Of a DNA stretch of 64,000 nt, positions 10,045 to 25,609 are shown one piece after another. The stretch is taken from positions 7,328 to 71,327 of IMG/VR virus record IMGVR_UViG_3300025574_000001, one strand, 5' to 3'. The DNA comes from a virus. A program made the position numbers and the translations under genes. Each line of letters begins with the position of its first letter. The stretch's first letter is position 1. The notes under the pieces are model-generated. The model was not told the origin of the DNA and did no database searches. It was given only the letters and a program-made list of their open reading frames with translations.

Positions 10045-10500
10045 ATGCTTTTAAAAAAACGACTACATCAAGACGCTGACAAACTTCTTATTGGACCAAA
10101 GAGAACATTTCAGCGCATCATCGTTCATTCACTTATTGATTTGGAATACATTACATCATTAACTTGTGCATGGGAGTCGTGTGTACTCCCGGGTGTTCCG
10201 CTAGCAGCAAGTGGAAGAACACTAGATGGTTTTACAATTGATCATATCATCGCAATAAATGATGGTGGCACTGACCGACCAGAAAACATACAACTTCTAC
10301 ATCACACTTGCAATATGCGCAAAGGTGCAATCTTCACTGAAGAACGTCGAGCAAAGATTGCAGAGAAGACAAAACTTAGATGGAATGACCCGGCATATAG
10401 AAATGCAATGGCCACTCGAACACGATCACAAGAAGAACATGAACATCGAGTTGCAGGAGCACAACGCGGTGATGATCATTGGAAAAGAAGGAGTGCCTAA
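10045..10500 (+). CDS. HNH endonuclease with NUMOD3-like tail
   Basis: TIDHIIAINDGGTDRPENIQLLHHTCN, followed by EERRAKIAE. Confidence 0.85.
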   Translation: MLLKKRLHQDADKLLIGPKRTFQRIIVHSLIDLEYITSLTCAWESCVLPGVPLAASGRTLDGFTIDHIIAINDGGTDRPENIQLLHHTCNMRKGAIFTEERRAKIAEKTKLRWNDPAYRNAMATRTRSQEEHEHRVAGAQRGDDHWKRRSA

Positions 10501-11021
10501 TGTTGGTGATCTTAGAAGGGCCGGATGGGGCCGGGAAAACTACTCTCGCACAAAAGATTGCGTTCAGTGTTCACGGTGTCACTGACATTCGGCATTGTAG
10601 TCAACTAAGACGTAACCCTATGGCTGAGTATGTCGAGGACTTACACATGTACGTTCCCGGCACCGGGATGAATATCGTTTACGACCGTCACTACTTAGGT
10701 GAACTTACCTATGGACCTTTGTACCGTGGCATATCACAAGTCAGCCCAAGTATTAAGACAGCGATTGAGTACCGATTAAACAAACTTGGTGCGCTTCTTG
10801 TTCATGTGACACACGATCTTCCAACGCTAATTGAACGATGTAAGGATAAGGGCGAAGATTTTTTGCAAGAAGGTGACATTTACTTTGTGCGTCAACAATT
10901 CATTGAAGAAGTTGCGGAGTCGGGAATTAGATTCAAGGCGGCTGTGACAGATGCAACAGGTCAAGACATCCTTGATATCATCTGGCTTGCACAAGAACTG
11001 GAAAAGAGAGTGAGTGAATGA
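10500..11021 (+). CDS. Thymidylate-kinase-like dNMP kinase
   Basis: ILEGPDGAGKTT P-loop and the YDRHYLGELTYGPLYR motif. Confidence 0.85.
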   Translation: MLVILEGPDGAGKTTLAQKIAFSVHGVTDIRHCSQLRRNPMAEYVEDLHMYVPGTGMNIVYDRHYLGELTYGPLYRGISQVSPSIKTAIEYRLNKLGALLVHVTHDLPTLIERCKDKGEDFLQEGDIYFVRQQFIEEVAESGIRFKAAVTDATGQDILDIIWLAQELEKRVSE

Positions 11022-11890
11022 TCGTAATCCCTAACATGCCTATTGGTTATCGCACAGTCATTGAACATGTCATTGCACGCGGGCGTCCTGTTAGTCCTCG
11101 AGGAATGCCAACGTTGGAAGTTCCTGATGTTGTTGTGCGTCTTGACAATCCGTTCTTTGCTCTTGCACTCGGTTCAACACGGAAGATCAATCTGGCGATT
11201 GCGGCAGCGGAGACTGTGCAACTTATCGGTGGGTTTCTTGACCCACAACTTTTGACCAGTGTCTCTAAGAACTTTGAACAGTTCATGGATGATGGCACCT
11301 TTCACGGTGGTTATGGCGAACGCATCGGAGATCAGATGTTGCGTGCCGCACAAAAGTTAGTGACGGATCACAGCACGCGACAAGCCGTGATTCAACTCTG
11401 GGACAAGGACAAGGATAATGAAAGCGGATATCACGATTATCCTTGCACTCTTTCACTCGTCTTTCAAGTTCGTGATGATAAGTTAGAACTTCATACCACG
11501 ATGCGTTCAAACGACGTGTGGCTTGGGTTTCCTTATGACGTGTTTCAATTCACCCAGTTGCAAATCACGATGGCACGTGTCTTGGGCTTTGGCATTGGTC
11601 CTTACTATCATCATGCTGTAAGTCTGCATCTCTATGATCGAAATCGTTTTGATGCGGAACACTTGCGCATGGTGCCAGTGACACTCATAGATAACCGTCC
11701 ACTGGGTTTCGGCAATGTACACACTGACCGAAGTATGAATATCTTTGGTGTATTACAAAGAGCCAAAGATATTGGGACAGGTAATAAAAGTGAGGTCACA
11801 AAGCGTTCACCATCAGAAGAGTGGTACGTGAAGCAGTTGGCACCACACGTTGCACCACACACAAAAGACAAAGGGACGAGAAACAAATGA
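11018..11890 (+). CDS. Thymidylate synthase-fold enzyme, probable dCMP hydroxymethylase/hydroxylase
   Basis: DYPC (Cys143) and MRSNDVWLGFPYD. Asp174 sits at the position of E. coli ThyA Asn177 and T4 gp42 Asp179. Confidence 0.8.
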   Translation: MIVIPNMPIGYRTVIEHVIARGRPVSPRGMPTLEVPDVVVRLDNPFFALALGSTRKINLAIAAAETVQLIGGFLDPQLLTSVSKNFEQFMDDGTFHGGYGERIGDQMLRAAQKLVTDHSTRQAVIQLWDKDKDNESGYHDYPCTLSLVFQVRDDKLELHTTMRSNDVWLGFPYDVFQFTQLQITMARVLGFGIGPYYHHAVSLHLYDRNRFDAEHLRMVPVTLIDNRPLGFGNVHTDRSMNIFGVLQRAKDIGTGNKSEVTKRSPSEEWYVKQLAPHVAPHTKDKGTRNK

Positions 11891-12378
11891 CGGCAATAGG
11901 ACGACGACAGAGTTGGGACAGGACGTGGATGGCCATGGCGTTTGTGATGGCACTTCGGTCAGATTGTACACGCTCACAAATAGGTGCAGTGATTGTGAAT
12001 GATAAGAATCGAATCATCGCCACCGGATATAACGGTCCACCCGCGGTAAGTCCTGTCGATTACACATGTCATCTCTCATGTCCCAGGGCGAATGGTGATG
12101 TAGGAGATCAGTACGGGTTCACTTGCATTAGCATTCATGCCGAGGCCAACGCGCTTCTCTTCTGTGATCGGTCAACGATTGAAGGTGGTTCACTCTATGT
12201 GAACGCTGTGCCGTGTCCCGACTGCGCGAAGTTGATTGCGAACAGCGGACTCACGCACGTGTACTTTGTCGATGATGGGAAACCAAATCGAATCCCACAC
12301 ACGGTTACAGAATACTTAGACCAACACGGTGTCCTAATGCTAGAGATGCAGATGCGTGATGAGTTTGCAGAACGTTAA
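11887..12378 (+). CDS. dCMP deaminase
   Basis: IIATGYNGPP, HAEANAL and PCPDCAK Zn-binding motifs. Confidence 0.92.
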   Translation: MTAIGRRQSWDRTWMAMAFVMALRSDCTRSQIGAVIVNDKNRIIATGYNGPPAVSPVDYTCHLSCPRANGDVGDQYGFTCISIHAEANALLFCDRSTIEGGSLYVNAVPCPDCAKLIANSGLTHVYFVDDGKPNRIPHTVTEYLDQHGVLMLEMQMRDEFAER

Positions 12379-14137
12379 ACTCCATTACATCGAGTCGTTG
12401 CGTGATGCTGATGAATTCATGTTATGGCTAGGTAATCAGCGTTCCGTTCTTGCAGTTGACACAGAGACGACAGGTCTCAAGCCGCACAGAGATCACGTGC
12501 GCCTTGTGCAATTTGGCGATCACGATGAAGGGTGGACGTTTCGCTGGGATCGATGGGGCGGTGTCGTTAAAGAAGTGTTTGATAGGTATGAAGGTGATTA
12601 CGTTTTTCACAACGGAAAATTCGACCTTGCGATGTTGAAGCAGTGGTGTGACGTTGTGATTCCTCCTTCACGTGTTCACGACACTGCAATCATGGCGCGA
12701 CTACTTGACCCATGTGGGTTACGTGGTCTTAAGCCGGTGGCCACGATGTTAGTCGATAGGAATGCGGGTGTTGGTCAAGCGATGTTGGATAAGGCGATGC
12801 ATGATGGTGGATGGGACTGGTCAACGATTCCGTATGACGTGCCAGCCTACACGATGTATGCCGCGATGGACTGTGTGCTGACTGTGCGTCTCTTTGAAAT
12901 TCTCTACCCACAGATCTTGACGACTTGTCCGGTGGCATATGATTTGGAACGTGAGTTCGCTTCTGTGGCGCAAAAGATCGAGGCTCGAGGATCACAGGTT
13001 GACGCGGATTACACTAAGCAAGCATTTGAAAGTCTCACCACGTATATGACGACTGCGGAACAGTGGTGTGTTGACAACTACAATGTGAAGCCAGGTTCTA
13101 ATCAAGCAGTGGTACAAGCGCTTATGAATGATGGTGTATCGTTCATCAAGACAACAAAGGCCGGTGCCGTGTCGCTTGATGCTGATGTGTTAGAAGGAAT
13201 TGATCATCCACTTGCAAAGACTGTCTTACAACGACGACAAACGCAAAAGGTAGCGAACACTTATCTCAAAAACTTTTTGGAAATGTCCGATGATCAATAC
13301 ATCATTCGCCCAGGGATGGATGCACAAGGAACTGTGACAGGTCGAATGAGTATGGAGTTGCTTCAAACACTCCCACGTCGCAATGAAGACAACCCGTTAG
13401 CGGACATCGTGCGCAACTGCATTGTGCCGCGTGAAGGTAACGTCTTGCTCTTCAGTGACTTTTCCCAGGTGGAAATGCGTATATTGGCTCACCTCACTGG
13501 TGATCCCGGATTAGCAGAAGCATTCACCCAAGATGATTTTTTTCTTAGTGTTACTCGGGAAATTTTCAATGACCAAACAATTACAAGAAAAGACCCGCGA
13601 CGACAGACCACTAAGAATGGGCTCTATGCGTGGGCGTATGGTGCGGGTGCCGATAAGTTCGCGATGACTGCGGGTATTCCAAGAGAAGAAGGCGCTGTGT
13701 TCTTCAACACAATCAAGAATCGTTTCCCGATGATGGAAGGATTCAAGAAACAAGTCGAACGTGTAGCAACTGAACGCGCACAACTGGAAGGTCGACCGTA
13801 TGTCCTGTCGCCTTTCACACGTCAGCCCTACTATCCGCAACGTGAGGATAAGATTTACGCTTTGGTCAACTACTTAATTCAAGGTAGTGCGGCATCGATC
13901 TTGAAGATGAAGGTTGTTGAACTTGACAACGCGGGTGTTGGCGATTACATCACACTCTTGATTCACGATGAAGTGATTGTGGATGCACCATTGAATATGA
14001 ATCGTGAAATCGCTGGCACGATGCAAGCGATAATGAACGATGATCACATATTGTCGGTTCCTCTTATAGCGGAACTTAGTGCGGGTTATCGGTGGGGTGA
14101 AAAGTTTGATTACCTGGGATCCTCGTTAGATGTCTAG
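12356..14137 (+). CDS. polA: DNA polymerase family A (3'-5' exonuclease plus polymerase)
   Basis: DTETTGL exonuclease motif; motif A DFSQVEMRILAH; motif B RQTTKNGLYAWAYG; motif C IHDE. Confidence 0.95.
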   Translation: MMSLQNVKLHYIESLRDADEFMLWLGNQRSVLAVDTETTGLKPHRDHVRLVQFGDHDEGWTFRWDRWGGVVKEVFDRYEGDYVFHNGKFDLAMLKQWCDVVIPPSRVHDTAIMARLLDPCGLRGLKPVATMLVDRNAGVGQAMLDKAMHDGGWDWSTIPYDVPAYTMYAAMDCVLTVRLFEILYPQILTTCPVAYDLEREFASVAQKIEARGSQVDADYTKQAFESLTTYMTTAEQWCVDNYNVKPGSNQAVVQALMNDGVSFIKTTKAGAVSLDADVLEGIDHPLAKTVLQRRQTQKVANTYLKNFLEMSDDQYIIRPGMDAQGTVTGRMSMELLQTLPRRNEDNPLADIVRNCIVPREGNVLLFSDFSQVEMRILAHLTGDPGLAEAFTQDDFFLSVTREIFNDQTITRKDPRRQTTKNGLYAWAYGAGADKFAMTAGIPREEGAVFFNTIKNRFPMMEGFKKQVERVATERAQLEGRPYVLSPFTRQPYYPQREDKIYALVNYLIQGSAASILKMKVVELDNAGVGDYITLLIHDEVIVDAPLNMNREIAGTMQAIMNDDHILSVPLIAELSAGYRWGEKFDYLGSSLDV

Positions 14138-14489
14138 CGCACTGCACATACGATTGTTCTTTGCCCATAATGGTCTTGGACCATACGCTTGTTTCTTTTG
14201 TGGTGATGATGTCACACTAGAGAAAGTAACAATTCATCATAAGAATCACAATCATGATGACAACCGAAAATCAAACTTGAAAGCATCACACTCCGGTTGT
14301 CATAGTCGACATCATGCCACCGGGCGTGTTAAATCAGATGAAGAATGCGCAAAGATTTCAATAGCGCGTAAGGGTATGTTTGAACGTGGTGAACTTGTAT
14401 CACCAACAAAAGGTGTAGGTCACACACCCGAAACTCGCGCAAAGATGAGTGCATCAATGATGGGAAACTTGAATGGAAAACGAAGGTGA
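14130..14489 (+). CDS. HNH endonuclease with NUMOD3
   Basis: GPYACFFC...IHHKNHNHDDNRKSNL..SHSGCHSRHH and HTPETRAKMS. Confidence 0.85.
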   Translation: MSSALHIRLFFAHNGLGPYACFFCGDDVTLEKVTIHHKNHNHDDNRKSNLKASHSGCHSRHHATGRVKSDEECAKISIARKGMFERGELVSPTKGVGHTPETRAKMSASMMGNLNGKRR

Positions 14490-14911
14490 TTTTTATTGGC
14501 GTGGACCCGGGGAAAACTGTTGGTCTTGCCGTTTACGATACTGATGATGCAGAGTCAATGATGGGTACTCAAATTTTATTTGATGATCTTGGCGATTGGC
14601 TAAATGTAAGTTTGGCAAATCTTAAAGGTCGTGATGTAACTGTCGCATGTGAGAGATACACAATTCGAAGTTTGAAAGTAGCGGCTGATGCGCACTGGGC
14701 AATAGAGATAATTGGAATCGTCAACTATTTGTGTAGGTGTTATTCAGTACCCGTGATAATGCAAATGCCTTCGGATGCAAAGAACTTTGCAACAGACTTA
14801 AAGTTAAGAAAAGCCAAGTGGTATATGCCAGGTAAGAATCATGCGAATGATGCGATGAGGCACATAGGATTAGCAATGGCCTCACTAAAAATTACACCAC
14901 CGTGGTTCTAA
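14486..14911 (+). CDS. RuvC-like Holliday junction resolvase
   Basis: FIGVDPGKTVGLA, VACERY and HANDAMRH acidic catalytic motifs. Confidence 0.85.
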   Translation: MIFIGVDPGKTVGLAVYDTDDAESMMGTQILFDDLGDWLNVSLANLKGRDVTVACERYTIRSLKVAADAHWAIEIIGIVNYLCRCYSVPVIMQMPSDAKNFATDLKLRKAKWYMPGKNHANDAMRHIGLAMASLKITPPWF

Positions 14912-14951
14912 AAGTAGTATTGTAAACTTAGACGAAATTGATGAAGGATGA

Positions 14952-16814
14952 TTGATGGCACTTGCCGAACTTAGTGAAGACAGTGGACGGATCTTGGTGT
15001 CCACAACGTTCAGTGAGAAGGAATTGATTAAGATGGTGCCGGGTAGTGCGTGGAGAAACAATGCATGGACCGTCCCACTGTCTTGGGGTTCGTGTGTTGT
15101 CCTCCGTGGTATTTTTCATGAGCGACTTGAAGTTGGTCCACGCTTAACAGAGTGGGCGTGGCATGAACGCAAGGAACGTGTTGACCCAGCGAATGAAATT
15201 CGCACGGTGATTGCGTGGGCCAATGATGAAGTGATGGAGCCAGGTCTCTACCCATTCCAAGACGTGGGTGTTGAGTTTCTTTATCGCGCTAAGCGTGCAC
15301 TCCTTGCTGATGAAATGGGAACAGGTAAGACGACACAAACCATCCGCGCAATTCGTCGTCTTGCTGATTGGGGTGAAGATCCGTTTCCCGTATGCGTCAT
15401 CTGTCCTAATACTGTCAAACCCGGGTGGGAAACGGAATGGAACCGTGAAGCGCCTCGAGGTGACCCGGGTGTTGACGTATTCATTGTGCAAGGTTCGTTA
15501 CCGAAACGACGTAAGATCTTCACTGATGTAACAAAGGCAATAAGTCTAGGACGTGATGTCGCGGTCGTTATCAATATCGAAGGCGTGCGTGGGCATTCAC
15601 GTCTTGCACCTTACGGAACTGTTCACTTAACTGATGCTGAAAAGGCGCTAAAGGAACTAAACGAAATCCCATTCAAGACCGTTGTTGTTGACGAGGCTCA
15701 CAGGATGAAAGATCCCAAGTCAAAACAAACACGTGCATGCTGGGCAGTGCAACACGGGAAGGATGTAAAGTTTGCATTCGCGTTGACTGGCACACCCATT
15801 GCGAATCATCCTGGTGACATATGGTCAATCATGCATGGAATCGCACCACTTGATTACCCAGTGCGTGGGAAGTTCATCGACCGGTACTGTCAACAAGGTT
15901 ACACTCCTTTTGGTGGATTGAATATCACGGGTGTGTTGCCAGCGACAAAGGAAGAGTTTGAAACTATCCTCAACCCACGTATGCGGTCAATGCCAAAGGA
16001 ACTTGTGTTGCCCTTCTTACCACCTAAGGTTCGACCAGACCCGCGCTATGTAGAGATGGGTGTGAAGCAAAAGAAGGCGTATCGACAGATGGAAGAAGAC
16101 ATGATGATCCGTCTTGAGGATGGGTCAACGATCTTCGCAACAAACTCACTTACACGTAACACACGCTTACTTCAATTCTCTTCTGCGTTCGCAACTGTTG
16201 ATGAAGCGGGTGAAGTACACTTATCTGAACCGTCATCAAAGTTAGATGAACTTGACACGATCATTGATGAAATGGATGGGCAACCACTAGTCGTTGTCGC
16301 TGAGAGTAAGCAACTCATTAACCTTGCCCAGGTGCGAATGGAAAAGCGTGGGATCACGTATCGCATGATCACAGGCGACATACCTGCCGGTCCTATCCGT
16401 GAACAAAACCGAATCGACTTTCAAGAAGGTAAGGCAAGAGTGATGTTGATGACAATTAAAGCGGGTGGTGTTGGGATTACACTTACACGTTCTGGTGTCA
16501 TTGTCTTTTTGCAACGTTCGTGGTCATTCATCGAGAACCAACAGTGTGAAGACCGATTGCACCGCATTGGTTCAGAGATTCACGACAAGATTGTGATCAT
16601 CGACATGATTGCATCCGACACAAAGGAAGAAGATCAGATTCCGCGTCTTCATGAAAAATTAGTCAGGTGGCAGGAGATCGTGCGACACCGTGAAACGTTA
16701 CTGGCAAATGGTAACGTGGAAGCAGTCGCCGCACTTGACGCAGAAAGAGCAGCAATTGAATCGAGCCCACTGTGGGAAAACGATGAAGTGAGAGAAAGAG
16801 AGAATGATGAGTGA
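14952..16814 (+). CDS. SNF2-family helicase
   Basis: LADEMGTGKT, VVDEAH, ALTGTP, GVGITL and QCEDRLHRIG. Confidence 0.93.
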   Translation: MMALAELSEDSGRILVSTTFSEKELIKMVPGSAWRNNAWTVPLSWGSCVVLRGIFHERLEVGPRLTEWAWHERKERVDPANEIRTVIAWANDEVMEPGLYPFQDVGVEFLYRAKRALLADEMGTGKTTQTIRAIRRLADWGEDPFPVCVICPNTVKPGWETEWNREAPRGDPGVDVFIVQGSLPKRRKIFTDVTKAISLGRDVAVVINIEGVRGHSRLAPYGTVHLTDAEKALKELNEIPFKTVVVDEAHRMKDPKSKQTRACWAVQHGKDVKFAFALTGTPIANHPGDIWSIMHGIAPLDYPVRGKFIDRYCQQGYTPFGGLNITGVLPATKEEFETILNPRMRSMPKELVLPFLPPKVRPDPRYVEMGVKQKKAYRQMEEDMMIRLEDGSTIFATNSLTRNTRLLQFSSAFATVDEAGEVHLSEPSSKLDELDTIIDEMDGQPLVVVAESKQLINLAQVRMEKRGITYRMITGDIPAGPIREQNRIDFQEGKARVMLMTIKAGGVGITLTRSGVIVFLQRSWSFIENQQCEDRLHRIGSEIHDKIVIIDMIASDTKEEDQIPRLHEKLVRWQEIVRHRETLLANGNVEAVAALDAERAAIESSPLWENDEVRERENDE

Positions 16815-18968: not shown

Positions 18969-19826
18969 ATGATGGCAGAATTTGATTGGTCCACACTGAT
19001 GGAGCAAGCGGGTACATCGCTTGTGCCGATTCCAGATGGTGAGTATGAATTGCAGTGCAGTTCAGCGAAGCCAGGAACATCAAGTAACGGTAAGCAGACA
19101 TTCAATTGTCGATTCACCGTTGTGCAAGGACCGCACACATCACGACCCGTGTACAACACCTTCACGATTTCGCCGGAAAGTCCGCCAGCAATTGCGTTCT
19201 TCTTTCGACACATGAAGGCGTTTGGTTTGGACCTCGAATACTTTAAGAGGAACCCAACACCGGACCAAGTTGCGGATGCGTTGATTGGGAAGTTGGTTCA
19301 CGCAAAGATCGGTCACAAGACGTACCAAGGTGAAGTGCGAAACGAGTGCAATGGTTTTTCAGCATCACTGCTTGCACCCGGGAGTGTTCCTGTGACACCA
19401 ACACCAGCACCAGTTGGTGGTGGTCCAGTGACAGCACCACCGCCTCCTATCGCATCAGTTCCAACACCGGCAGTCCCGCCAGTCGCAGCCGCACCTGCAC
19501 CTATTGTTGCGCCTGCACCAGTTGCGGAGACGGTTGCACCGCCTCCTGCTGCTGTACGCACGTTCAATCCACCCGATGGTCAAGAGTGGAATGGGACAGC
19601 GTGGATATGGCCAGTGGAACGTGTCGCGGGTTGGAACTGGGATGTTGCTTCGCAGACTTGGGTAAACCCAGTTCCTGCGGCTGTGACGCCTCCACCACCG
19701 CCCGCACCACCTGCACCACCTGCACCACCCGCTGCACCCGCTGCACCAGCCGCACCGCTTGCACCTCCTGTTGCTGCCGCTCCCACGGCTGCGACAGTTC
19801 CTGGTGCACCTTCAGTTCCGTTTTAA
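18969..19826 (+). CDS. DUF669-like ssDNA-binding protein with Pro/Ala tail
   Basis: IPDGEYELQC...GPHTSRPVYNTF OB-like region, then a long Pro/Ala linker and C-terminal PF. Confidence 0.8.
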   Translation: MMAEFDWSTLMEQAGTSLVPIPDGEYELQCSSAKPGTSSNGKQTFNCRFTVVQGPHTSRPVYNTFTISPESPPAIAFFFRHMKAFGLDLEYFKRNPTPDQVADALIGKLVHAKIGHKTYQGEVRNECNGFSASLLAPGSVPVTPTPAPVGGGPVTAPPPPIASVPTPAVPPVAAAPAPIVAPAPVAETVAPPPAAVRTFNPPDGQEWNGTAWIWPVERVAGWNWDVASQTWVNPVPAAVTPPPPPAPPAPPAPPAAPAAPAAPLAPPVAAAPTAATVPGAPSVPF

Positions 19827-19832
19827 GGAAGG

Positions 19833-21146
19833 ATGACGATGGGTAAGAGAATCGGATACGCGAAGTTAGGGCGTTCAATGCCACTTGTTGCTAGTGAAGG
19901 CGACTTCAGTGATGATGAACCTGCACGTGTGTTACGTGATCTTGCCCATCGTCACCCGGAGGATGAATTCGTTATTCTTGGATTCAATTCATGTGATGAC
20001 AATGCAACAGCACGTATGCCCGACAACGTTGTGAACCCGTGGCATGATGGGTGGCGTGATTCATTGAAAGAATTAAGAACGGGTTGGAAGGCGCCACTAG
20101 GACCAGAGAATCAGATGAAGATACAAGATTGGGGTGACGCAAACATTCTCCCATGGTTTCGTTCGTGTGATGCTGTGATCATCTGGCTTGGACAACATGG
20201 GAACACGAATAGTTTTATCCCGCCAGCAAATGGGTTGTGGTCTGATGGTGCAGTTAAACTTCACGACGAATACCTTTCGTATGGAAGTTACTGTGTACGT
20301 GGTGTGAATGCATTTCGTCAAGCCGACCCACTCACACGTGAAGAAATTTATCTAGTCGCTGACGGACGTAATCATTTGAAAGCACGTGACACAAAGTGGC
20401 CACTTAAGCATCCGATTCAGGGACAATACATTTGGTCACGTAAGACGAAGTTTGAACGTTATGGCGATACACGATCACCCGAAGAGTGTGGGTTCCCAGA
20501 AGCAGAGTGGGACAACGATCACATATGGATGGCCGATGTGAAGTATGAATACACACGTCTTGAAATCTCAGGCATCCTTCCCTGGGAAGTTGACATTCGT
20601 TACTCTGAGGAATTTGATTCACGACGTCACTTTGGTCTTTTCATCAATGAGGCAAGAGCGTATGTTGGCGTGTCACGTCTTAAGGCGATGCAAGAGTACG
20701 TGTTACAACTAAACCCGGTGTTCATTCATGGAAAATGGGGTAAGGAATCATTAGCCGTTCTTGGCTTTGATATTCAGCAAGCGCCCGCAACGATTTACTA
20801 TGACATCTTACGTTCTGTGAAGTGTACGTTCTCAACACCTTCATCAGGTACGGGTTGGGCAACGACGAAACCGTGGCAAGGTTTCGGTTGCGGGACCGTG
20901 ACGTTCTTTCATCCGAAATACGACACACAAGACAACATCCTTGGTGATGCACCCAAGGAACTTCGCGATTGGCTTCGTGTCACATCACCTGAACAATTGA
21001 AAAAGCGCGTGGAACATCTTGACACTCACTATGACGATTGGCTTTGGATTATCCGCGAACAGAAAAAGCATTATGATACGGCAGTTGCAGAGATGAGACA
21101 CATCAAAAAAATTGAGGAGAGAATATATGGTAATGACAATGGATGA
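19833..21146 (+). CDS. T4 beta-glucosyltransferase-like DNA glycosyltransferase (GT-B)
   Basis: Motifs collinear with T4 BGT as recalled: YLVADGR vs YLFTDIR (catalytic Asp100), TTKPWQ..YDTQ vs TLRVWE..FDTK, and VTSPEQLKKRVEHL vs VNNRAELIDRVNEL. Confidence 0.75.
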   Translation: MTMGKRIGYAKLGRSMPLVASEGDFSDDEPARVLRDLAHRHPEDEFVILGFNSCDDNATARMPDNVVNPWHDGWRDSLKELRTGWKAPLGPENQMKIQDWGDANILPWFRSCDAVIIWLGQHGNTNSFIPPANGLWSDGAVKLHDEYLSYGSYCVRGVNAFRQADPLTREEIYLVADGRNHLKARDTKWPLKHPIQGQYIWSRKTKFERYGDTRSPEECGFPEAEWDNDHIWMADVKYEYTRLEISGILPWEVDIRYSEEFDSRRHFGLFINEARAYVGVSRLKAMQEYVLQLNPVFIHGKWGKESLAVLGFDIQQAPATIYYDILRSVKCTFSTPSSGTGWATTKPWQGFGCGTVTFFHPKYDTQDNILGDAPKELRDWLRVTSPEQLKKRVEHLDTHYDDWLWIIREQKKHYDTAVAEMRHIKKIEERIYGNDNG

Positions 21147-22218
21147 AACGACGACACACATCAAAGAACCACCGAAAAAATTGGACATAGCAATTGTGTC
21201 CACATCAATCAATGAAGCACCAGTGGCGTATGCGAAGTGGGCAAAGTTAGGACGCTTAATTATTGCGGGTGACAAGAACACACCACCTACACTTGAACAC
21301 TACATCAAATCCCTGGGTGAACAACACCAGTACATACCGCCGGCGCAACAAGATCGATGGGAATCGAGTGAAGTGATTGGGTGGCATAACATCCAACGTC
21401 GCAACATTGCAATCCTCGAGGCGATTAAGTCAGATGTTGATTACATCATCACAGTGGATGACGACAACATCCCACTTCAAAACATTGATCTTATACTCTC
21501 TGCATTTGAAAATTCTCACGCACTACACGTTAGTTCAGCACTAGGTTGGTACGACCCGTGTCGTGAACTTATCCCCGCTGTGTGGCATCGTGGATTCCCA
21601 TATTCTTTTCGCAATCAGCAAGGTAAGCAAGGAGTTGAGTCGCTTGAACGATATGACGTGATAAAAGTGCCAATAGGTGTTGTGGCGGCAACGTGGTTGG
21701 GTGAACCTGATGTTGGTGCAATTGACCGCATCACGAATCACGTACTTGTTCAAGGACATCACGCCACTCTGTTAGACCCGGGTGTTGTGCTACAACCAGG
21801 AACGTGGTGTCCGTTCAATTCGCAAGCAACAGCGTGGCGTGCAGAGTACGCTTCACTGATGATGTGCTGGCCTGGTGTTGGTCGATTCGATGACATCTTC
21901 GCAAGTTTTGCAGCGCGTCGAGTGTTGGATGAATTGGGTGTTGGTGTGAAGTATGTGCAACCACTTGTGCGTCAAGATCGCAATGAACACGATTCATTCG
22001 TTGACCTTGAGAATGAAATGTTTGGCTACAAACATCAAGATGAGTTGTGCGAACTTCTTCGTGCAGTTGACTTACGTGGTATAGATGACGTGCAAGATAT
22101 GCAACATCACGTCTATGATGCTCTTAGTGGCGCTAGATTTTTACCACATAGAACTATTGAATCATTTGAGTGTTGGATGAACGACGTTAAGACAGCGGAA
22201 AAGGAGCGTGCAGTATGA
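21127..22218 (+). CDS. GT75/RGP (UDP-arabinopyranose mutase)- or STELLO-like protein
   Basis: IITVDDDN, HRGFPYSFR, WLGEPDVGA, GTWCPFNSQ and GRFDDIFA match RGP IYTIDDDC, VRGYPFSLR, WLNIPDYDA and GRYDDMWA. Confidence 0.75.
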   Translation: MVMTMDETTTHIKEPPKKLDIAIVSTSINEAPVAYAKWAKLGRLIIAGDKNTPPTLEHYIKSLGEQHQYIPPAQQDRWESSEVIGWHNIQRRNIAILEAIKSDVDYIITVDDDNIPLQNIDLILSAFENSHALHVSSALGWYDPCRELIPAVWHRGFPYSFRNQQGKQGVESLERYDVIKVPIGVVAATWLGEPDVGAIDRITNHVLVQGHHATLLDPGVVLQPGTWCPFNSQATAWRAEYASLMMCWPGVGRFDDIFASFAARRVLDELGVGVKYVQPLVRQDRNEHDSFVDLENEMFGYKHQDELCELLRAVDLRGIDDVQDMQHHVYDALSGARFLPHRTIESFECWMNDVKTAEKERAV

Positions 22219-23183
22219 AGATAGCGGTTACGGGTGCAGGTGGATTCATTGGTGGTCACCTTGTCAATCAGTTGTTGAATGATGGACACCAAGTTTCGGC
22301 GTATGACATTAAGCCGTTAAGAGAATGGCAACAAGTTCGTGGCGATGCGCGTAATCATCCTCTTGTTGATGTTGGTATGAACAATGCTGATTTTGATTTT
22401 GAAGATATGGATGAAGTGTATCAACTTGCAGCCGACATGGGCGGGTTGGGATTCATTCAAAACAACAAAGCACGATGCATGCTATCGGTTCTTGCATCAA
22501 CGAACACATTGTTAAAAGCCAATGAAGCGGGTGTAGGTCGATTCTTTTACCCATCATCAGCGTGTGCGTACCCAGCGGGTGTGCAGACTGAAATTGATTC
22601 ACCGCCAATTAAAGAAAGCGACATATACCCGGCGATGCCAGAGGATGGGTACGGCTGGGAGAAGTTATTCAGTGAGCGAATGTGTAATCACTTCTATGAA
22701 GACTTCGGTCTTGAAACACGTGTGGCGCGATACCACAACACATACGGCCCATGGGGTGAATGGGAAGGTGGTCGTGACAAGGCTCCCGCGGCAATGTGTA
22801 GGAAAGTCGCAATCGCTAAGTTGTCAAAGAGTCATGAAGTTGAAGTATGGGGTGATGGAATGCAAACACGAACGTTCACATACATTGATGATTGTCTAAA
22901 AGGCACAGTGATGTTGACGCGAAGTGACGTGCATGAACCCGTGAACCTTGGTTCCGCGGAACTCATATCCATCAATGATCTGGCGAATCTCACTGCACTT
23001 ATTGCCGGCGTGAACATCCACATACGTCATATCCCCGGCGCGTTGGGCGTGCGAGGTCGATGCAGTGACAACACACTCATCAATAAGTTATTTGACTGGG
23101 AACCTAGCATTTCATTAAGTGAAGGAATGGAACGCACTTATGAATGGGTTTATAATCAGGTGAAGGCAAAATATTTCTCATGA
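22215..23183 (+). CDS. GDP-mannose 3,5-epimerase-like NAD-dependent epimerase
   Basis: VTGAGGFIG, QLAADMGGLGFI, SSACAYP, YGWEK and GGRDKAPAAMCRK, all GME-type motifs. Confidence 0.88.
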   Translation: MKIAVTGAGGFIGGHLVNQLLNDGHQVSAYDIKPLREWQQVRGDARNHPLVDVGMNNADFDFEDMDEVYQLAADMGGLGFIQNNKARCMLSVLASTNTLLKANEAGVGRFFYPSSACAYPAGVQTEIDSPPIKESDIYPAMPEDGYGWEKLFSERMCNHFYEDFGLETRVARYHNTYGPWGEWEGGRDKAPAAMCRKVAIAKLSKSHEVEVWGDGMQTRTFTYIDDCLKGTVMLTRSDVHEPVNLGSAELISINDLANLTALIAGVNIHIRHIPGALGVRGRCSDNTLINKLFDWEPSISLSEGMERTYEWVYNQVKAKYFS

Positions 23184-23548
23184 TAACTGGCAATTGTGTT
23201 AAGTGTGGCACATGGCGACAGTCACTTCATCGTGATCATATCATTGCAAAGTGCAATGGTGGAAGTGATGATCCCAGTAACATCCAGTTGTTGTGCGCGA
23301 ATTGTCATGAAGACAAAACACGTGAAGATTTAACAGGTCGAACAATAAGTGAAGAAACACGTGCCAAAATAAAAGGTCATCCTCATCGTGGTCCTAAACA
23401 TCATTCACCAGAAACACGTGCAAAAATAGGTGAAGCGCGAAAAGGACAAGTGTTCACGCCAGAGACACGGGCGAAGATGAGTACATCAGCAAAAGAATCA
23501 TCTAAACGCGGATGGGAAACACGACGAAGAAATGAGAGAAAAACATGA
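23180..23548 (+). CDS. HNH endonuclease with NUMOD3 repeats
   Basis: CVKC...HRDHIIAKCNGGSDDPSNIQLLCANCH, plus ETRAKI/ETRAKM repeats. Confidence 0.88.
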   Translation: MITGNCVKCGTWRQSLHRDHIIAKCNGGSDDPSNIQLLCANCHEDKTREDLTGRTISEETRAKIKGHPHRGPKHHSPETRAKIGEARKGQVFTPETRAKMSTSAKESSKRGWETRRRNERKT

Positions 23549-24021
23549 CATTCACACCACCCGAATCAGATGACTACACATTCAGTGAGTGGCTTGACTC
23601 CACAACTGAATTGCAAGTGGGCGCATACGGAATCAACCCGGGGAAATTGCAGGGTGAAGCGTTGAAAGGATGGTGTGCAATCAACGTTCTTGCAGCCACT
23701 GATGAACTTCACGAATTCTTACAGGAAGTGCCGTGGAAGCCGTGGGCATCAGGTATGCAAATCAATCGTGATGCAGCCATCAGTGAAATCGTTGACACCA
23801 TGCACTTCATCTCAAACTTGTTGGCGACATTCGACGTCACAGGTGAAGAACTTACACGTGTGTATAAGGCAAAGCAAATTCGCAACGCACAACGTCAAGC
23901 CGAAGGCTACACGGGATTGGACAAGTGTTCAGGTTGTCACCGCGACAAACAAGAAGTCGGCGGATGCATACATGAACAAGGTCCAATGACGTGCAATGGT
24001 TGTGGGACGGTGTGGCTGTGA
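23545..24021 (+). CDS. Dimeric dUTPase/dCTPase (T4 gp56-like, MazG superfamily)
   Basis: DELHEFLQEVPWKPW...EIVDTMHF...YKAKQIRNAQRQAEGY. Confidence 0.85.
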   Translation: MTFTPPESDDYTFSEWLDSTTELQVGAYGINPGKLQGEALKGWCAINVLAATDELHEFLQEVPWKPWASGMQINRDAAISEIVDTMHFISNLLATFDVTGEELTRVYKAKQIRNAQRQAEGYTGLDKCSGCHRDKQEVGGCIHEQGPMTCNGCGTVWL

Positions 24022-24398
24022 GTACGCGAACACATCAAAAAGTTTTTCTAACAAATAATGGTGATGGGCCGTGGCCTTGTCACTTTTGCAAAGAACTTGT
24101 GTATGGACCTATTCCAAATGGAAAAACAAAATATGTTGCTATTGTTCATCACATTGATGAAGATCGTTCTAACAATGACAAATTGAATCTTGTAGTGGCT
24201 CATCACAGTTGCCATTCTTCATATCACGCAACTCATCCACCAAATGATGTTACACAAAGTGACCAAGCCAAACGAGGTTGGAAGACACGAAAACTTCAAG
24301 GAAATAATCTTGCTAATGCATACTGCACAACACGTGGTATGAAACGCAGCAACGCAACAAGTAAGGGTTGGATAACGCGAAAGAGGAATGCATTATGA
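24018..24398 (+). CDS. HNH endonuclease
   Basis: GPWPCHFC...VHHIDEDRSNNDKLNL..AHHSCHSSYH. GTG start overlaps the upstream stop. Confidence 0.8.
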   Translation: MSTRTHQKVFLTNNGDGPWPCHFCKELVYGPIPNGKTKYVAIVHHIDEDRSNNDKLNLVVAHHSCHSSYHATHPPNDVTQSDQAKRGWKTRKLQGNNLANAYCTTRGMKRSNATSKGWITRKRNAL

Positions 24399-25609
24399 CA
24401 AAGTCAACTCACACAGCCATTGATGTACAAGGTTTCGCTGGCGGGTTCACACTGGGAATGGTGCAGGCAGGTTTCACACTTGTTTCAAAATGCGAAATGA
24501 AGGGTGCATTCGGTGCAGCCAACTGTGAAGCGAATCGTCATCTTCTTGGCAACAAGTGGGATCTTCAAGTTGGGCCACAGGAGAGTTGGGAAAACCGAGG
24601 TGCTGAAGTTCAGTTTGGCAATCCTCCGTGTAGTGCGTTCAGTCCTCTTAGCGCGAAATCGTTTCGTGGTATGAACAGTCCTATCGCCCACTGTATGTGG
24701 GCAGAAAGTCAGTACGCCGCACGTGCAATGCCATATGTGATGATCTTTGAGTCTGTGCAACAGGCTTACAATCAAGGTCTCCCGATGATGCGCGATATTC
24801 GCACGTGGCTTGAACACGAATCAAAAACGAAGTGGGAACTGTATCACGTCCTTCATAACAATGCCGGCCTAGGTGGTGCGTCAATTCGTAAGCGATATTT
24901 CTATGTGGTGTCGCGTATCCCATTTGGTGTTGATGAACCACACATCACACGTGTGCCAGTTCTTAAGGATGTGTTAGGTGATCTAATGGGACTGGGTCAG
25001 ACGTGGGAAGCCCAAGCCTATCGACGTCAACCATCGTGGTGGGCAAAGCCAATGCGTTCAAAGTTGAATGTTGTGGATGGTCACATCGGTCGCAACAACG
25101 CAGTGGATGTGTTGCGTGTATTGCAACTTCTTGACGCTGTGCCGTGGGGTGAAGGTGAAGTTGTTGGGCAAGTCGCGAAAAGGTACTATGAACAGTACGG
25201 CGAACTTCCTGATCTCTGGACCAACACGCAGAAGTGGGTGGACAAGGATTGGCAGATGGGATTTCACCAACCCATCAAAATGAAATGGGACAAGATGGCG
25301 CGAGTGATCACAGGCGCAGTGTTGCATAAGAACATTCACCCACGGGAGAATCGGTTTCTTACACATCGCGAGGCTGCACGAATTCAAGGGTTTCCTGATG
25401 ACTGGAACATTCGCCCGTTGCGTGGCGTGAGTGGATTAAGCGCAACGTGGGGCAAGGGTATCCCAGTGCAAGCGGGCAAGTGGATTGGAACAGCGATTAA
25501 GAATGCACTTGACGACAACCCGCAGGAATATCAAGGTGAATTGATTGGAGAGAGGGAACACGTCATCGACTGGACTAACACATATCGAAAATTCACGACT
25601 GAACGGTAG
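24395..25609 (+). CDS. C5-cytosine methyltransferase-fold protein (divergent)
   Basis: GNPPCSAFS (motif IV), FESV (VI), SIRKR (VIII) and REAARIQGFPD (IX). Motif I DVQGFAGG and motif X WGKGIP are non-canonical. Confidence 0.8.
   Translation: MTKSTHTAIDVQGFAGGFTLGMVQAGFTLVSKCEMKGAFGAANCEANRHLLGNKWDLQVGPQESWENRGAEVQFGNPPCSAFSPLSAKSFRGMNSPIAHCMWAESQYAARAMPYVMIFESVQQAYNQGLPMMRDIRTWLEHESKTKWELYHVLHNNAGLGGASIRKRYFYVVSRIPFGVDEPHITRVPVLKDVLGDLMGLGQTWEAQAYRRQPSWWAKPMRSKLNVVDGHIGRNNAVDVLRVLQLLDAVPWGEGEVVGQVAKRYYEQYGELPDLWTNTQKWVDKDWQMGFHQPIKMKWDKMARVITGAVLHKNIHPRENRFLTHREAARIQGFPDDWNIRPLRGVSGLSATWGKGIPVQAGKWIGTAIKNALDDNPQEYQGELIGEREHVIDWTNTYRKFTTER

What the first reader, a model, noticed from the sequence alone, without database searches (positions are those of the whole stretch)
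10500..25609. Candidate new cytosine hypermodification pathway with a non-glucose sugar
Seen in sequence: a dNMP kinase, an Asp-type ThyA-fold enzyme, dCMP deaminase and Pol A are clustered. About 6 kb downstream is an overlapping run of a BGT-like transferase, a GT75-like protein, a GME-like epimerase, a gp56-like dCTPase and a C5-MTase-fold gene (two HNHs are inserted in this run). ThyX lies at 32-33 kb. Established: T4 uses gp42, gp1, gp56, cd and BGT to make glucosyl-hmC. Inference: this phage replaces C with hmC (or hydroxy-C) and adds a sugar it makes itself, for example an L-galactose/L-gulose-type or furanose sugar, rather than host UDP-glucose. I do not know this combination to be characterised in an actinobacterial-type phage.
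Basis: partly seen in the sequence, partly recalled or inferred. Interest (0 to 1): 0.95.

Follow-up and report, generated by a model that had tools for sequence, protein, structure and literature searches.

The report
Phage cytosine sugar-decoration gene module
An uncultured 75-kb phage from a peat metagenome carries a T4-style gene set predicted to replace cytosine with hydroxymethylcytosine, plus a DNA glycosyltransferase and two enzymes predicted to make a rare sugar donor (GDP-L-galactofuranose), so it probably decorates its DNA with a sugar not yet reported on DNA.

Summary
It is not shown chemically.

- **Modified base.** The ThyA-fold enzyme matches T4 dCMP hydroxymethylase at the diagnostic positions and lacks the D169N mark of 5-hydroxycytosine synthases. 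I therefore predict 5-hmC, not 5-hoC.
- **Sugar donor.** The next two genes are a GT75 enzyme closest to MtdL, a GDP-L-galactose/fucose pyranose-furanose mutase, and a clear GDP-mannose 3,5-epimerase. Together they predict GDP-L-galactofuranose made from host GDP-mannose.
- **Relatives.** In 72 related viral contigs the transferase travels with the hydroxymethylase-type ThyA, a dCTPase and a C5-methyltransferase. The slot after the transferase swaps sugar-donor cassettes.

I found no paper describing this combination. The scan reached the same reading earlier on another genome (e1-3411311). Two points remain open: AGCT is completely absent from the genome, and the always-present C5-methyltransferase has no clear role. 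I rate this a new variant of a known kind, of moderate to high interest.

The parts
10500..11021 (+). Nucleotide (dNMP) kinase, YorR/thymidylate-kinase-like. Its proposed role is hmdCMP to hmdCDP. The ORF is open from a TTG at 10479; the likely start is the ATG at 10500.
   Evidence: phrog_761 at 6e-16. Best solved relative is YorR 2axp/3kb2 at 2e-5, starting at residue 8. BLASTP against RB69p045 gives 2e-5. The gene is adjacent to ThyA in relatives.
11018..11890 (+). ThyA-fold enzyme, predicted dCMP hydroxymethylase (5-hmdCMP synthase)
   Evidence: PF00303 at 5.8e-19. Best PDB match is MilA CMP hydroxymethylase at 3e-16. E58, L143D, C146, D169, G173, N177D and Y209 equal the T4 gp42 pattern and differ from RB69 gp48.
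11821..12378 (+). dCMP deaminase (start codon uncertain; the Pfam match begins at residue 31)
   Evidence: PF00383 at 1.8e-20. The gene is conserved next to ThyA in relatives.
12356..14137 (+). Family A DNA polymerase with 3'-5' exonuclease (context: the replication module that must accept the modified dNTP)
   Evidence: PF00476 at 5.4e-57 and PF01612 at 8.3e-16.
19833..21146 (+). GT-B glycosyltransferase with a T4 BGT-like fold; predicted DNA hmC glycosyltransferase
21127..22218 (+). GT75 enzyme; predicted GDP-L-galactopyranose to GDP-L-galactofuranose mutase (MtdL-like)
   Evidence: PF03214 is above its cut-off. MtdL structures match at 2e-28 with the single sequence and 1.6e-58 with the profile, against 2.8e-7 for plant UAM. 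The catalytic residues are kept, except that His287 is Gln.
22215..23183 (+). [quoted passage not shown]
   Evidence: 2c59 at 3.6e-92 over residues 1-318; the next family scores 8e-27. S143, C145, Y174, K178 and K217 equivalents are kept, read from the alignment.
23180..23548 (+). HNH + NUMOD3 homing-type endonuclease, inserted; not part of the pathway
   Evidence: PF01844 at 1.5e-10 and PF07460. The gene is absent at this place in L087 and L001.
23545..24021 (+). dCTPase/dUTPase of the all-alpha dUTPase_2 family (T4 gp56-like)
   Evidence: PF08761 at 3.4e-10. phrog_18650 at 2.7e-23. BLASTP against T4 gp56 gives 1e-8 over 42 residues. Present in 44 of 49 relatives with enough flank.
23991..24398 (+). 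HNH_3 endonuclease, inserted; not part of the pathway
   Evidence: PF13392 at 6.9e-8. The gene is absent in L087.
24368..25609 (+). C5 cytosine DNA methyltransferase-fold enzyme with all catalytic motifs; its role in the module is unresolved
   Evidence: PF00145 at 4.8e-17. Motifs read from the M.HaeIII alignment are FAGG, PPC, ESV, RKR, REAARIQGFPDD and GKGIPV. NPPCS and the other motifs are at least 95% conserved in 60 homologues. Present in 49 of 49 relatives.
32181..33026 (-). ThyX flavin-dependent thymidylate synthase; it supplies dTMP, so the ThyA-fold enzyme is not needed for that
   Evidence: phrog_85 at 1.7e-55. TIGR02170 at 4.3e-10, below its cut-off.

Best explanation
This is a complete phage genome that builds glycosylated 5-hydroxymethylcytosine DNA by a T4-like route, but with its own sugar donor.

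Proposed steps (all inferred from homology):
1. The gp56-like dCTPase (23545-24021) depletes dCTP.
2. The ThyA-fold enzyme (11018-11890) hydroxymethylates dCMP using methylene-tetrahydrofolate.
3. The adjacent kinase (10500-11021) and host NDP kinase raise the product to hmdCTP.
4. The phage Pol A incorporates it into DNA.
5. dCMP deaminase and ThyX keep dTTP supplied.
6. In parallel, GME (22215-23183) converts host GDP-D-mannose to GDP-L-galactose.
7. The MtdL-like GT75 mutase (21127-22218) contracts the ring to give GDP-L-galactofuranose.
8. After replication, the BGT-fold GT-B enzyme (19833-21146) transfers this hexose to the hydroxymethyl group of hmC in DNA, shielding the genome from host nucleases.

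What is shown here: the gene content, the diagnostic residues, the fold and the conserved linkage. What is inferred: the base, the donor, the acceptor and the protective role.
For: **hmC route.**
- The ThyA-fold enzyme has E58, L143D, C146, D169, G173, N177D and Y209. This is identical to T4 gp42 at every diagnostic position. It differs from the proven 5-hoC synthase RB69 gp48, which has F58, N169, V173 and F209. The same pattern holds in 36 relatives and in three very distant ones.
- The rules come from PMC13326640: N177D means a dCMP substrate, L143D/E means a hydroxymethyl product, and D169N marks 5-hoC synthases.
- The kinase, dCMP deaminase, dUTPase_2-family dCTPase and ThyX complete the T4 logic.

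**Transferase.**
- The model has pLDDT 93.
- T4 AGT and the phage HY126 DNA glycosyltransferase also appear among the matches, and BFVD returns a protein named 'DNA beta-glucosyltransferase'.

**Donor.**
- GME matches at 3.6e-92 with its catalytic residues kept.
- The GT75 profile matches MtdL at 1.6e-58, against 2.8e-7 for plant UDP-arabinopyranose mutase.
- The GDP-selecting Thr13 is kept and invariant. The DDDN motif, R159, S228/Q229, R257, D260, R289 and H292 are also kept.
- MtdL makes GDP-L-galactofuranose from GDP-L-galactopyranose (PMC9937993).
- The genome has no nucleotidyltransferase of its own, so host GDP-mannose is the likely starting point.

**Linkage.**
- Among 72 related viral loci, hmC-type ThyA is present in 33 of 41 with a full upstream flank. 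In six of the other eight, the flank ends at or just after the dCMP deaminase gene that follows ThyA.
- The dCTPase is present in 44 of 49 and the C5-methyltransferase in 49 of 49.
- The slot after the transferase holds alternative sugar-nucleotide cassettes. These include the NTP-transferase + SIS isomerase pair known from DNA arabinosylation in RB69/DLP3, and in L034 a 5-hmdU-DNA-kinase-family gene.
Against: - No chemistry is available and there is no cultured relative. The transferase has no tblastn match in 50,697 phage records.
- The transferase is not a sequence member of the T4 BGT family. It has no PF09198 hit, and hhalign aligns only 55 columns at 34% probability. GT-B folds are common.
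- In overall sequence the ThyA-fold enzyme is closer to RB69 gp48 (1e-14) than to T4 gp42 (3e-8). The hmC call therefore rests on a handful of residues.
- The Mn-binding His287 of MtdL is an invariant Gln in the phage GT75 family.
- GME and GT75 genes also occur in cyanophages. I did not examine those cyanophages for an hmC route.
- AGCT is absent from the whole genome, against 96 to 291 expected, and is nearly absent in close relatives. This is unexpected if every cytosine were shielded.
- A conserved, apparently active C5-methyltransferase has no substrate in fully hmC-substituted DNA.
Confidence: 0.55

Rival explanations
1. The base route is as described, but the sugar chemistry differs. 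GME supplies GDP-L-galactose or GDP-L-gulose in pyranose form to the GT-B enzyme. The GT75 protein acts as a second glycosyltransferase or self-glycosylating protein rather than a mutase, giving an L-hexopyranosyl or di-hexosyl hmC.
For: GT75 members also show glycosyltransferase (autoglycosylation) activity (PMC9937993). The Mn-binding His287 is replaced by Gln in every phage homologue. 12 relatives carry GT75 without any epimerase. From my own knowledge, T2 and T6 add a second sugar with a second transferase.
Against: The mutase catalytic and sugar-binding residues R159, S228/Q229, R257 and D260 are all kept and mostly invariant. GME followed by a GT75 mutase is the documented route to GDP-L-galactofuranose. 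No GT75 enzyme is known to glycosylate DNA.
Confidence: 0.15
2. The GT-B/GT75/GME trio glycosylates something other than DNA, such as a virion protein, a host envelope glycan or a small molecule. It merely sits inside the replication module. The DNA would then carry bare hmC or none.
For: GME occurs in 54 phage records, mostly cyanophages, and GT75 in 4 cyanophage records and 2 uncultured-phage records. An earlier scan note (e1-3505823) read a GME/GT75 cassette next to a terminase gene as protein-directed. GT-B enzymes have very diverse acceptors.
Against: The transferase family is linked to hmC-type ThyA enzymes across 23 to 50% identity and across very different GC contents. It always lies between the SSB-like gene and the dCTPase and methyltransferase genes, not with structural genes. 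Its best structural neighbour is the DNA enzyme T4 BGT. The same slot holds the DNA-arabinosylation-type cassette and a 5-hmdU DNA kinase homologue in relatives.
Confidence: 0.12
3. The ThyA-fold enzyme is a flavin-dependent 5-hydroxy-dCMP synthase like RB69 gp48, so the sugar is ether-linked directly to C5 (glycosyl-5hoC).
For: Pairwise similarity is higher to RB69 gp48 than to T4 gp42. The adjacent YorR-like kinase is the same kind of kinase found beside the 5-hoC synthases of RB69 and DLP3. Phage-made furanose donors are known for 5-hoC systems.
Against: The diagnostic D169N is absent; Asp is kept in the window and in all 39 relatives examined. The folate-side residues E58, G173 and Y209, which differ in RB69 gp48, are also kept. 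All nine D169N enzymes tested in PMC13326640 made 5-hoC.
Confidence: 0.07

Closest known systems
Phage T4 glucosyl-hydroxymethylcytosine system (gp42, gp1, gp56, cd, beta-gt)
   Same: The logic and most of the parts match. There is a ThyA-fold enzyme with the gp42 residue pattern, a gp56-family dCTPase, a dCMP deaminase, a separate thymidylate synthase, and a transferase whose best structural match is T4 BGT.
   Different: The kinase is YorR/TMPK-like rather than gp1-like. The thymidylate synthase is ThyX. The transferase is not a sequence member of the BGT family: there is no PF09198 hit, and K/Q replace R269/E272 in the one segment that aligns. The donor is predicted to be phage-made GDP-L-galactofuranose rather than host UDP-glucose. 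A C5-methyltransferase is an obligate neighbour.
Arabinosyl-5-hydroxycytosine systems of RB69, DLP3 and HY126 (PMC13326640)
   Same: A ThyA homologue with N177D sits beside a YorR-like kinase and a GT-B DNA glycosyltransferase, and the phage encodes synthesis of an unusual furanose nucleotide sugar. Some relatives of this window carry the same NTP-transferase + SIS isomerase cassette.
   Different: Those enzymes carry D169N and make 5-hoC with a flavin. The window keeps D169 and the folate-side residues. The sugar route there runs from ribulose-5-P to UDP-arabinofuranose, whereas here it runs from GDP-mannose through GME and GT75.
Rhizobium phage RL38J1 hexosyl-5hoC with a phage UDP-galactopyranose mutase (PMC13326640)
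   Same: A phage-encoded pyranose-furanose mutase is proposed to feed a DNA glycosyltransferase.
   Different: That mutase is an FAD-type UGM acting on UDP-D-galactose. Here the mutase is a metal-dependent GT75 enzyme related to MtdL, acting on GDP-L-sugars. The base also differs (5-hoC there, 5-hmC here).
MtdL and Hyg20 GDP-L-hexose mutases of the A201A and hygromycin A antibiotic pathways (PMC9937993)
   Same: The fold and catalytic residues match: profile E 1.6e-58, with Thr13, DDDN, R159, S228/Q229, R257, D260, R289 and H292 kept. In the A201A pathway a GME homologue supplies the substrate; that detail is from my own recollection of the 2017 A201A paper, which I did not read here.
   Different: His287, the Mn ligand, is an invariant Gln in the phage family. 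Ser86/Asp87 read Asn/Ile in the window. The context is a phage DNA-modification module rather than an antibiotic gene cluster.
GME and GT75 genes in cyanophages
   Same: The cyanophage GME genes are 43-46% identical and the GT75 genes about 30% identical to the window's.
   Different: In those records the match was not examined for linkage to a ThyA-Asp enzyme or a BGT-like transferase. No member of the window's transferase family was found in any cultured phage record.

Membership tests
dCMP hydroxymethylase (T4 gp42-type ThyA homologue) | Catalytic Cys (E. coli C146) and Asp at the N177 position (cytosine substrate) | tested here: met
   Cys143 and Asp174 in the window. MAFFT alignment with E. 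coli ThyA, T4 gp42 and RB69 gp48; HMMER alignment to B. subtilis ThyA.
dCMP hydroxymethylase (T4 gp42-type ThyA homologue) | Acidic residue at L143 (hydroxymethyl rather than methyl product), with D169 retained (folate-type rather than 5-hoC synthase) | tested here: met
   Asp140 aligns to L143 and Asp166 to D169. E58, G173 and Y209 are also kept as in gp42. The rule is from PMC13326640.
dCMP hydroxymethylase (T4 gp42-type ThyA homologue) | Product is 5-hmdCMP | not testable with these tools
   This needs an enzyme assay or nucleoside LC-MS.
5-hydroxy-dCMP synthase (RB69 gp48 type) | D169N signature | tested here: not met
   Asp is kept in the window and in all 39 relatives aligned.
T4 beta-glucosyltransferase family (GT63, Pfam PF09198) | Sequence membership in the family profile | tested here: not met
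   No Pfam hit at E <= 0.01. PF09198 finds nothing in the genome at E <= 1. hhalign of the family profile against T4 BGT aligns only 55 columns, with probability 34% and E 4e-4.
T4 beta-glucosyltransferase family (GT63, Pfam PF09198) | GT-B fold closest to BGT | tested here: met
T4 beta-glucosyltransferase family (GT63, Pfam PF09198) | Catalytic Asp100 and UDP-binding R269/E272 equivalents | tested here: inconclusive
   In the only segment that aligns, TTKPWQ pairs with TLRVWE, so K346/Q349 replace R269/E272. Asp177 is invariant in the family, but its equivalence to Asp100 was not tested by residue-level superposition.
T4 beta-glucosyltransferase family (GT63, Pfam PF09198) | Acceptor is hmC in duplex DNA | not testable with these tools
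   Support is indirect only: linkage to hmC-type ThyA in 33 of 41 loci and in distant homologues.
GT75 NDP-pyranose mutase (MtdL/Hyg20/plant UAM) | Pfam RGP above the gathering score, DxD motif, and catalytic Arg159 and Arg257/Asp260 | tested here: met
   PF03214 scores 28.8 bits against a cut-off of 23.8. DDDN, RGFP and RFDD are aligned to MtdL and invariant in 44 homologues.
GT75 NDP-pyranose mutase (MtdL/Hyg20/plant UAM) | Mn-coordinating His287 | tested here: not met
   The window has Gln283 at this position, and it is invariant in the phage family.
GT75 NDP-pyranose mutase (MtdL/Hyg20/plant UAM) | GDP- rather than UDP-type base pocket (Thr13, Asn42, non-Asp at position 86) | tested here: met
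   Thr26 is invariant and aligns to Thr13. Asn51 aligns to Asn42, although most relatives have Lys there. Position 86 is Asn rather than the Asp of plant enzymes.
GDP-mannose 3,5-epimerase | Full-length similarity well above other SDR families, with the catalytic Ser/Tyr/Lys and the Cys145/Lys217 acid-base pair | tested here: met
   E 3.6e-92 over residues 1-318, against 8e-27 for the next family. SSAC, YGxEK and GGRxK are aligned. The residue roles are from my own knowledge of the Arabidopsis enzyme.
T4 gp56-type dCTPase | All-alpha dUTPase_2 family membership and similarity to gp56 | tested here: met
   PF08761 at 3.4e-10, 40.9 bits against a cut-off of 22.9. BLASTP against T4 gp56 gives 1e-8 over 42 residues at 36% identity. 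Substrate preference was not tested.
C5 cytosine DNA methyltransferase | Motifs I, IV (Pro-Cys), VI, VIII, IX and X | tested here: met
   All were read from the alignment to M.HaeIII. They are at least 95% conserved in 60 homologues.
CmoX-type C5 carboxymethyltransferase / TET-dependent hypermodification | Partner CmoA (Cx-SAM synthase) or a TET/JBP dioxygenase in the genome | tested here: not met
   TIGR00740 and PF12851 find nothing in the complete genome. The PF12851 search had no positive control.

The most novel reading that the evidence does not exclude
A widespread clade of uncultured phages keeps one BGT-fold DNA glycosyltransferase and one hmC route, but swaps the sugar-nucleotide cassette at a single genomic slot. 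The clade comes from peat and other metagenomes; several relatives carry WhiB or other actinophage-type genes. The cassettes seen are GME+GT75, GT75 plus another SDR, GT75 alone, kinase plus nucleotidyltransferase, and an RB69-like arabinose cassette. The clade would therefore carry a family of different glycosyl-hmC bases. This member would put L-galactofuranose on DNA, a sugar so far known in the antibiotic A201A. The universally linked C5-methyltransferase-fold enzyme, and the complete loss of AGCT in this sub-lineage, would point to a second layer of the system that is not yet understood.
Probability: 0.35. Interest if true: 0.8.

Novelty: new variant of a known kind. Interest (0 to 1): 0.62.

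Why it matters
Glycosylated cytosines are the classic phage answer to restriction and CRISPR. They also define which type IV nucleases and glycosylases can attack a phage. The known examples use glucose on hmC (T-even phages), and arabinose or galactose/glucose on 5-hoC.

If this prediction holds, it adds three things:
- A GDP-linked L-hexofuranose on hmC would be new DNA chemistry.
- It would be a second, mechanistically unrelated kind of phage pyranose-furanose mutase (GT75 rather than UGM).
- The donor cassette appears to be the evolutionarily mobile part of the system.

The prediction can be tested entirely by heterologous expression, because each step has an established assay.

Tried and rejected
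- **Closest phage.** Megablast of the 15-kb region against 50,697 phage records gave no match.
- **Transferase in cultured phages.** tblastn of the transferase against the same records gave no match at 1e-3, so there is no cultured relative to consult.
- **Transferase by sequence.** Pfam, PHROGs, NCBIfam and PDB sequence searches all gave nothing. Only structure prediction was informative.
- **Transferase against T4 BGT.** Profile-sequence hhalign is too weak to claim family membership.
- **Other routes to a modified cytosine.** I considered a C5-methyltransferase plus TET route, a CmoA/CmoX carboxymethyl route and a 5-hmdU DNA kinase route. None of these partners is in the complete genome.
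- **Host.** No WhiB gene and no tRNA are present in this genome. The actinobacterial link rests on relatives (WhiB in L001) and on the best ThyA hits, which are to actinophages.
- **Second SDR.** I tried to assign the other SDR found in many relatives. PDB hits are ambiguous between GME-like and GDP-fucose-synthase-like enzymes.
- **Literature.** Searches for GDP-L-galactose mutase, galactofuranose with hydroxymethylcytosine, GDP-mannose epimerase with phage DNA modification, RGP with hypermodification, and actinobacteriophage hydroxymethylase found no description of this cluster.
- **Depletion of A/T-only palindromes in high-GC relatives**. I judged this too confounded by base composition to use as evidence.

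Full report
**What the sequence is**

The window is bases 7328-71327 of a 75,028-bp viral contig. The contig has a 127-bp terminal overlap and is rated 100% complete. It is 49% G+C. The only public run found to hold the stretch is a peat metagenome, which is probably the source. No near relative exists among 50,697 deposited phage genomes.

**Check of the observation**

*First cluster:*
- An HNH gene lies at 10045-10500.
- A P-loop nucleotide kinase lies at 10479/10500-11021. It matches phrog_761 at 6e-16, and its best solved relative is the prophage protein YorR at 2e-5.
- A ThyA-fold gene lies at 11018-11890, PF00303 at 5.8e-19.
- A dCMP deaminase follows (PF00383, 1.8e-20), then a family A polymerase with proofreading domain.

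*Between the clusters* lie a NUMOD3 protein, a RuvC-like resolvase, an SNF2 helicase, an HTH-PD-(D/E)XK nuclease, an AAA_24 ATPase and an SSB-like protein.

*Second cluster:*
- A 437-aa protein with no sequence-family hit at all lies at 19833-21146.
- A GT75/RGP protein lies at 21127-22218 (PF03214, above its cut-off).
- An SDR epimerase lies at 22215-23183.
- An HNH+NUMOD3 gene, a dUTPase_2-family pyrophosphatase (23545-24021), an HNH_3 gene and a C5 DNA methyltransferase (24368-25609) follow.

ThyX lies on the minus strand at 32181-33026.

The two HNH genes in the run are true insertions. In the close relative L087 the epimerase, dCTPase and methyltransferase genes abut directly. In L086 only one small NUMOD3 gene intervenes.

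**Which base**

A 2026 paper (PMC13326640) showed that phage ThyA homologues fall into functional classes readable from a few positions, in E. coli numbering:
- N177D selects dCMP as substrate.
- An acidic residue at L143 goes with a hydroxymethyl rather than a methyl product.
- D169N marks the flavin-dependent enzymes that make 5-hydroxy-dCMP, as in RB69 and DLP3. All nine D169N enzymes tested made 5-hoC.

I aligned the window's protein with E. coli ThyA, T4 gp42 and RB69 gp48, all taken from public records, and with 36 relatives.
- The window and every relative read E58, D143, C146, D169, G173, D177 and Y209.
- T4 gp42 has the same residue at each of these positions.
- RB69 gp48 differs at four of them: F58, N169, V173 and F209.

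In the window's own numbering, the catalytic Cys is Cys143, the L143 equivalent is Asp140, the D169 equivalent is Asp166 and the N177 equivalent is Asp174.

The prediction is therefore 5-hmdCMP, not 5-hodCMP. One caution applies. In overall pairwise similarity the protein is nearer to RB69 gp48 (1e-14) than to gp42 (3e-8). Its best solved relative is MilA, a CMP hydroxymethylase. The call thus rests on the signature residues.

The rest of the T4 logic is present:
- A kinase sits beside the ThyA gene. It is of the YorR-like type that also sits beside the ThyA homologues of RB69 and DLP3.
- A pyrophosphatase of the gp56 family is present, with BLASTP against gp56 at 1e-8 over 42 residues.
- A dCMP deaminase and an independent thymidylate synthase (ThyX) are present.

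**The transferase**

More than 300 metagenomic homologues exist, all unnamed. A profile search of 1.84 billion cluster representatives finds 410 clusters at E <= 0.001 and 297 at E <= 1e-10.

An AlphaFold2 model built on 47 of these homologues is confident, with pLDDT 93 and pTM 0.92. Its structural matches are as follows:
- Foldseek's first six PDB matches are all T4 beta-glucosyltransferase, the best at 2.6e-9.
- Among predicted viral structures, the best matches include a protein named 'DNA beta-glucosyltransferase'.

By sequence it is not a member of the BGT family. It has no PF09198 match. The profile aligns to BGT over only 55 columns at the nucleotide-binding end, where K346/Q349 replace R269/E272. 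So it works like BGT by fold, but I do not file it in GT63.

**The donor**

The epimerase matches plant GDP-mannose 3,5-epimerase structures at 3.6e-92 over its whole length. The next SDR family scores 8e-27. The Ser/Tyr/Lys triad and the Cys/Lys acid-base pair align.

The GT75 protein's only solved relatives are the MtdL structures, at 2e-28. A profile of 44 phage homologues scores 1.6e-58 against MtdL, but only 2.8e-7 against plant UDP-arabinopyranose mutase.

MtdL converts GDP-L-galactopyranose to GDP-L-galactofuranose in A201A biosynthesis (PMC9937993). Comparing the phage protein with MtdL residue by residue:
- The GDP-selecting Thr13 is kept, along with Ile15 and Asp40.
- The DDDN motif, Arg159, Ser228/Gln229, Arg257, Asp260, Arg289 and His292 are kept, and most are invariant in the phage family.
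- The exception is the Mn ligand His287, which is an invariant Gln in the phage family.

The genome has no sugar-1-phosphate nucleotidyltransferase. The starting material would therefore be host GDP-mannose. The predicted chain is GDP-D-mannose to GDP-L-galactose to GDP-L-galactofuranose.

**Comparative evidence that these parts form one system acting on DNA**

I fetched 80 viral contigs encoding relatives of the transferase. With the window's proteins as tblastn queries, 72 loci carry a homologue at 32% identity or more.
- *ThyA.* Of 41 loci with a full 10-kb upstream flank, 33 contain the ThyA-fold gene. In six of the other eight, the flank ends at or just after the dCMP deaminase gene that follows it.
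- *Downstream genes.* Of 49 loci with at least 5 kb downstream, 44 have the dCTPase and all 49 have the C5-methyltransferase.
- *Distant homologues.* Three transferase homologues at 23-28% identity lie on low-GC contigs. They are also linked to ThyA-fold genes with the same hmC signature.

The slot directly after the transferase, or in some loci directly before it, is variable. Among 55 loci with at least 3 kb downstream it holds:

| Cassette | Loci |
|---|---|
| GT75 + true GME | 8 (plus the window, L086 and L087) |
| GT75 + a different SDR | 15 |
| GT75 alone | 12 |
| Kinase-like protein + nucleotidyltransferase | 8 |
| ~500-aa nucleotidyltransferase + SIS sugar-phosphate isomerase | 6 |
| Nucleotidyltransferase alone | 4 |
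| Nothing recognised | 2 |

The nucleotidyltransferase + SIS pair is the pair of activities that PMC13326640 assigns to UDP-arabinose synthesis in RB69 and DLP3.

One locus (L034) adds a UDP-glucose/GDP-mannose dehydrogenase, a SAM methyltransferase and a protein of the 5-hmdU DNA kinase family.

A conserved transferase next to interchangeable sugar-nucleotide cassettes, inside a replication and nucleotide-metabolism module, is the pattern expected of a DNA glycosylation system whose sugar diversifies.

**What does not fit**

*AGCT.* The tetramer AGCT does not occur at all in the 74.9-kb genome, against 96 expected from a Markov model and 291 from base composition. It is also absent or nearly so in the three closest relatives. 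Two of them (L086 and L087) were compared with the window at nucleotide level and are only 71-73% identical.

| Locus | AGCT observed | AGCT expected |
|---|---|---|
| L086 | 0 | 81 |
| L087 | 7 | 76 |
| L088 | 1 | 32 |

The higher-GC relatives have normal AGCT counts. Selection against this C-containing site persists in this sub-lineage. That is unexpected if all cytosines were shielded. It suggests one of three things: replacement or glycosylation is incomplete, a host enzyme is not blocked by the modification, or a phage nuclease uses AGCT.

*The C5-methyltransferase.* It has every catalytic motif. The Pro-Cys motif is conserved in 60 homologues, and the gene is never missing from the module. 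It would have little to act on in fully hmC-substituted DNA. The genome has no CmoA, TET/JBP or 5-hmdU DNA kinase partner. I leave its role open; a second, sequence-specific protective layer on residual cytosine is my best guess.

*GME and GT75 elsewhere.* GME occurs in 54 phage records, mostly cyanophages, and GT75 in 4 cyanophage records and 2 uncultured-phage records. I did not check those phages for an hmC route. Whether these two enzymes are confined to DNA modification in phages is therefore untested.

**Comparison with what is known, and novelty**

The system works like T4's glucosyl-hmC pathway. In having a phage-made furanose donor, it also resembles the arabinosyl-5hoC systems and the RL38J1 system. 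It differs from each:
- The base is predicted to be hmC rather than hoC.
- The donor is GDP-linked and of the L series.
- The mutase is a GT75 enzyme rather than an FAD-dependent UGM.

My literature searches found no description of this combination. The nearest mention is a genome announcement noting a dCMP hydroxymethylase and two glycosyltransferases in a Brevibacterium phage.

Within this scan, the same reading was reached earlier on another genome (e1-3411311). I arrived at mine before seeing that note, and it is not independent evidence.

**Verdict**

I rate it a new variant of a known kind. My confidence in the full mechanism is 0.55, and every step can be tested by heterologous expression.

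Noticed in passing
whole genome (window 1-64000 and the rest of the contig); L086, L087, L088: AGCT occurs zero times in the 74.9-kb genome, against 96 expected by a Markov model and 291 by base composition. It is also absent or nearly absent in the three closest relatives, at 0, 7 and 1 sites against 81, 76 and 32 expected. More distant, higher-GC relatives have normal counts. CATG and GATC are mildly depleted in the window (ratios 0.54 and 0.61).
   Followed up: partly
window 10045-10500, 14130-14489, 23180-23548, 23991-24398: Four HNH/NUMOD3 endonuclease-type genes are scattered through the replication and modification module. Their presence differs between close relatives, as expected of mobile homing endonucleases.
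   Followed up: partly
L034:11690-16533: In one relative, the slot after the transferase holds a SAM methyltransferase, GT75, a UDP-glucose/GDP-mannose dehydrogenase, a GME-like SDR and a protein of the 5-hmdU DNA kinase family (PF18723, 1.3e-22). This suggests a more elaborate hypermodification there.
   Followed up: no
L053:11296-13385, L064:11266-13322 and four other loci: Some relatives pair the hmC-type ThyA and the same transferase family with a ~500-aa nucleotidyltransferase and a SIS isomerase. This is the cassette type assigned to UDP-arabinose synthesis in RB69 and DLP3. It would predict arabinosyl-hmC rather than arabinosyl-5hoC.
   Followed up: no
window 21127-22218 (residue Gln283) and 44 homologues: The Mn-coordinating His287 of MtdL is replaced by an invariant Gln throughout the phage GT75 family, while the neighbouring Arg and His of the same loop are kept.
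   Followed up: partly
window 24368-25609 and 60 homologues: The C5-methyltransferase is the most constant neighbour of the transferase, present in 49 of 49 loci. It reads NPPCS at motif IV, where M.HaeIII reads PPCQ in the alignment.
   Followed up: partly
window 28552-30888: This 778-aa ORF has the same length and position as a Prim-Pol/D5_N primase-helicase called in the close relatives L086 and L087. I did not scan it on the window itself.
   Followed up: no
L004, L012, L059, L064, L066, L067, L069: Several high-GC relatives have no AATT at all in 15-21 kb, and very few TTAA or TATA. C-containing palindromes other than CTAG are mostly not depleted. This may reflect base composition or the vulnerability of A/T-only sites in C-modified DNA.
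   Followed up: no
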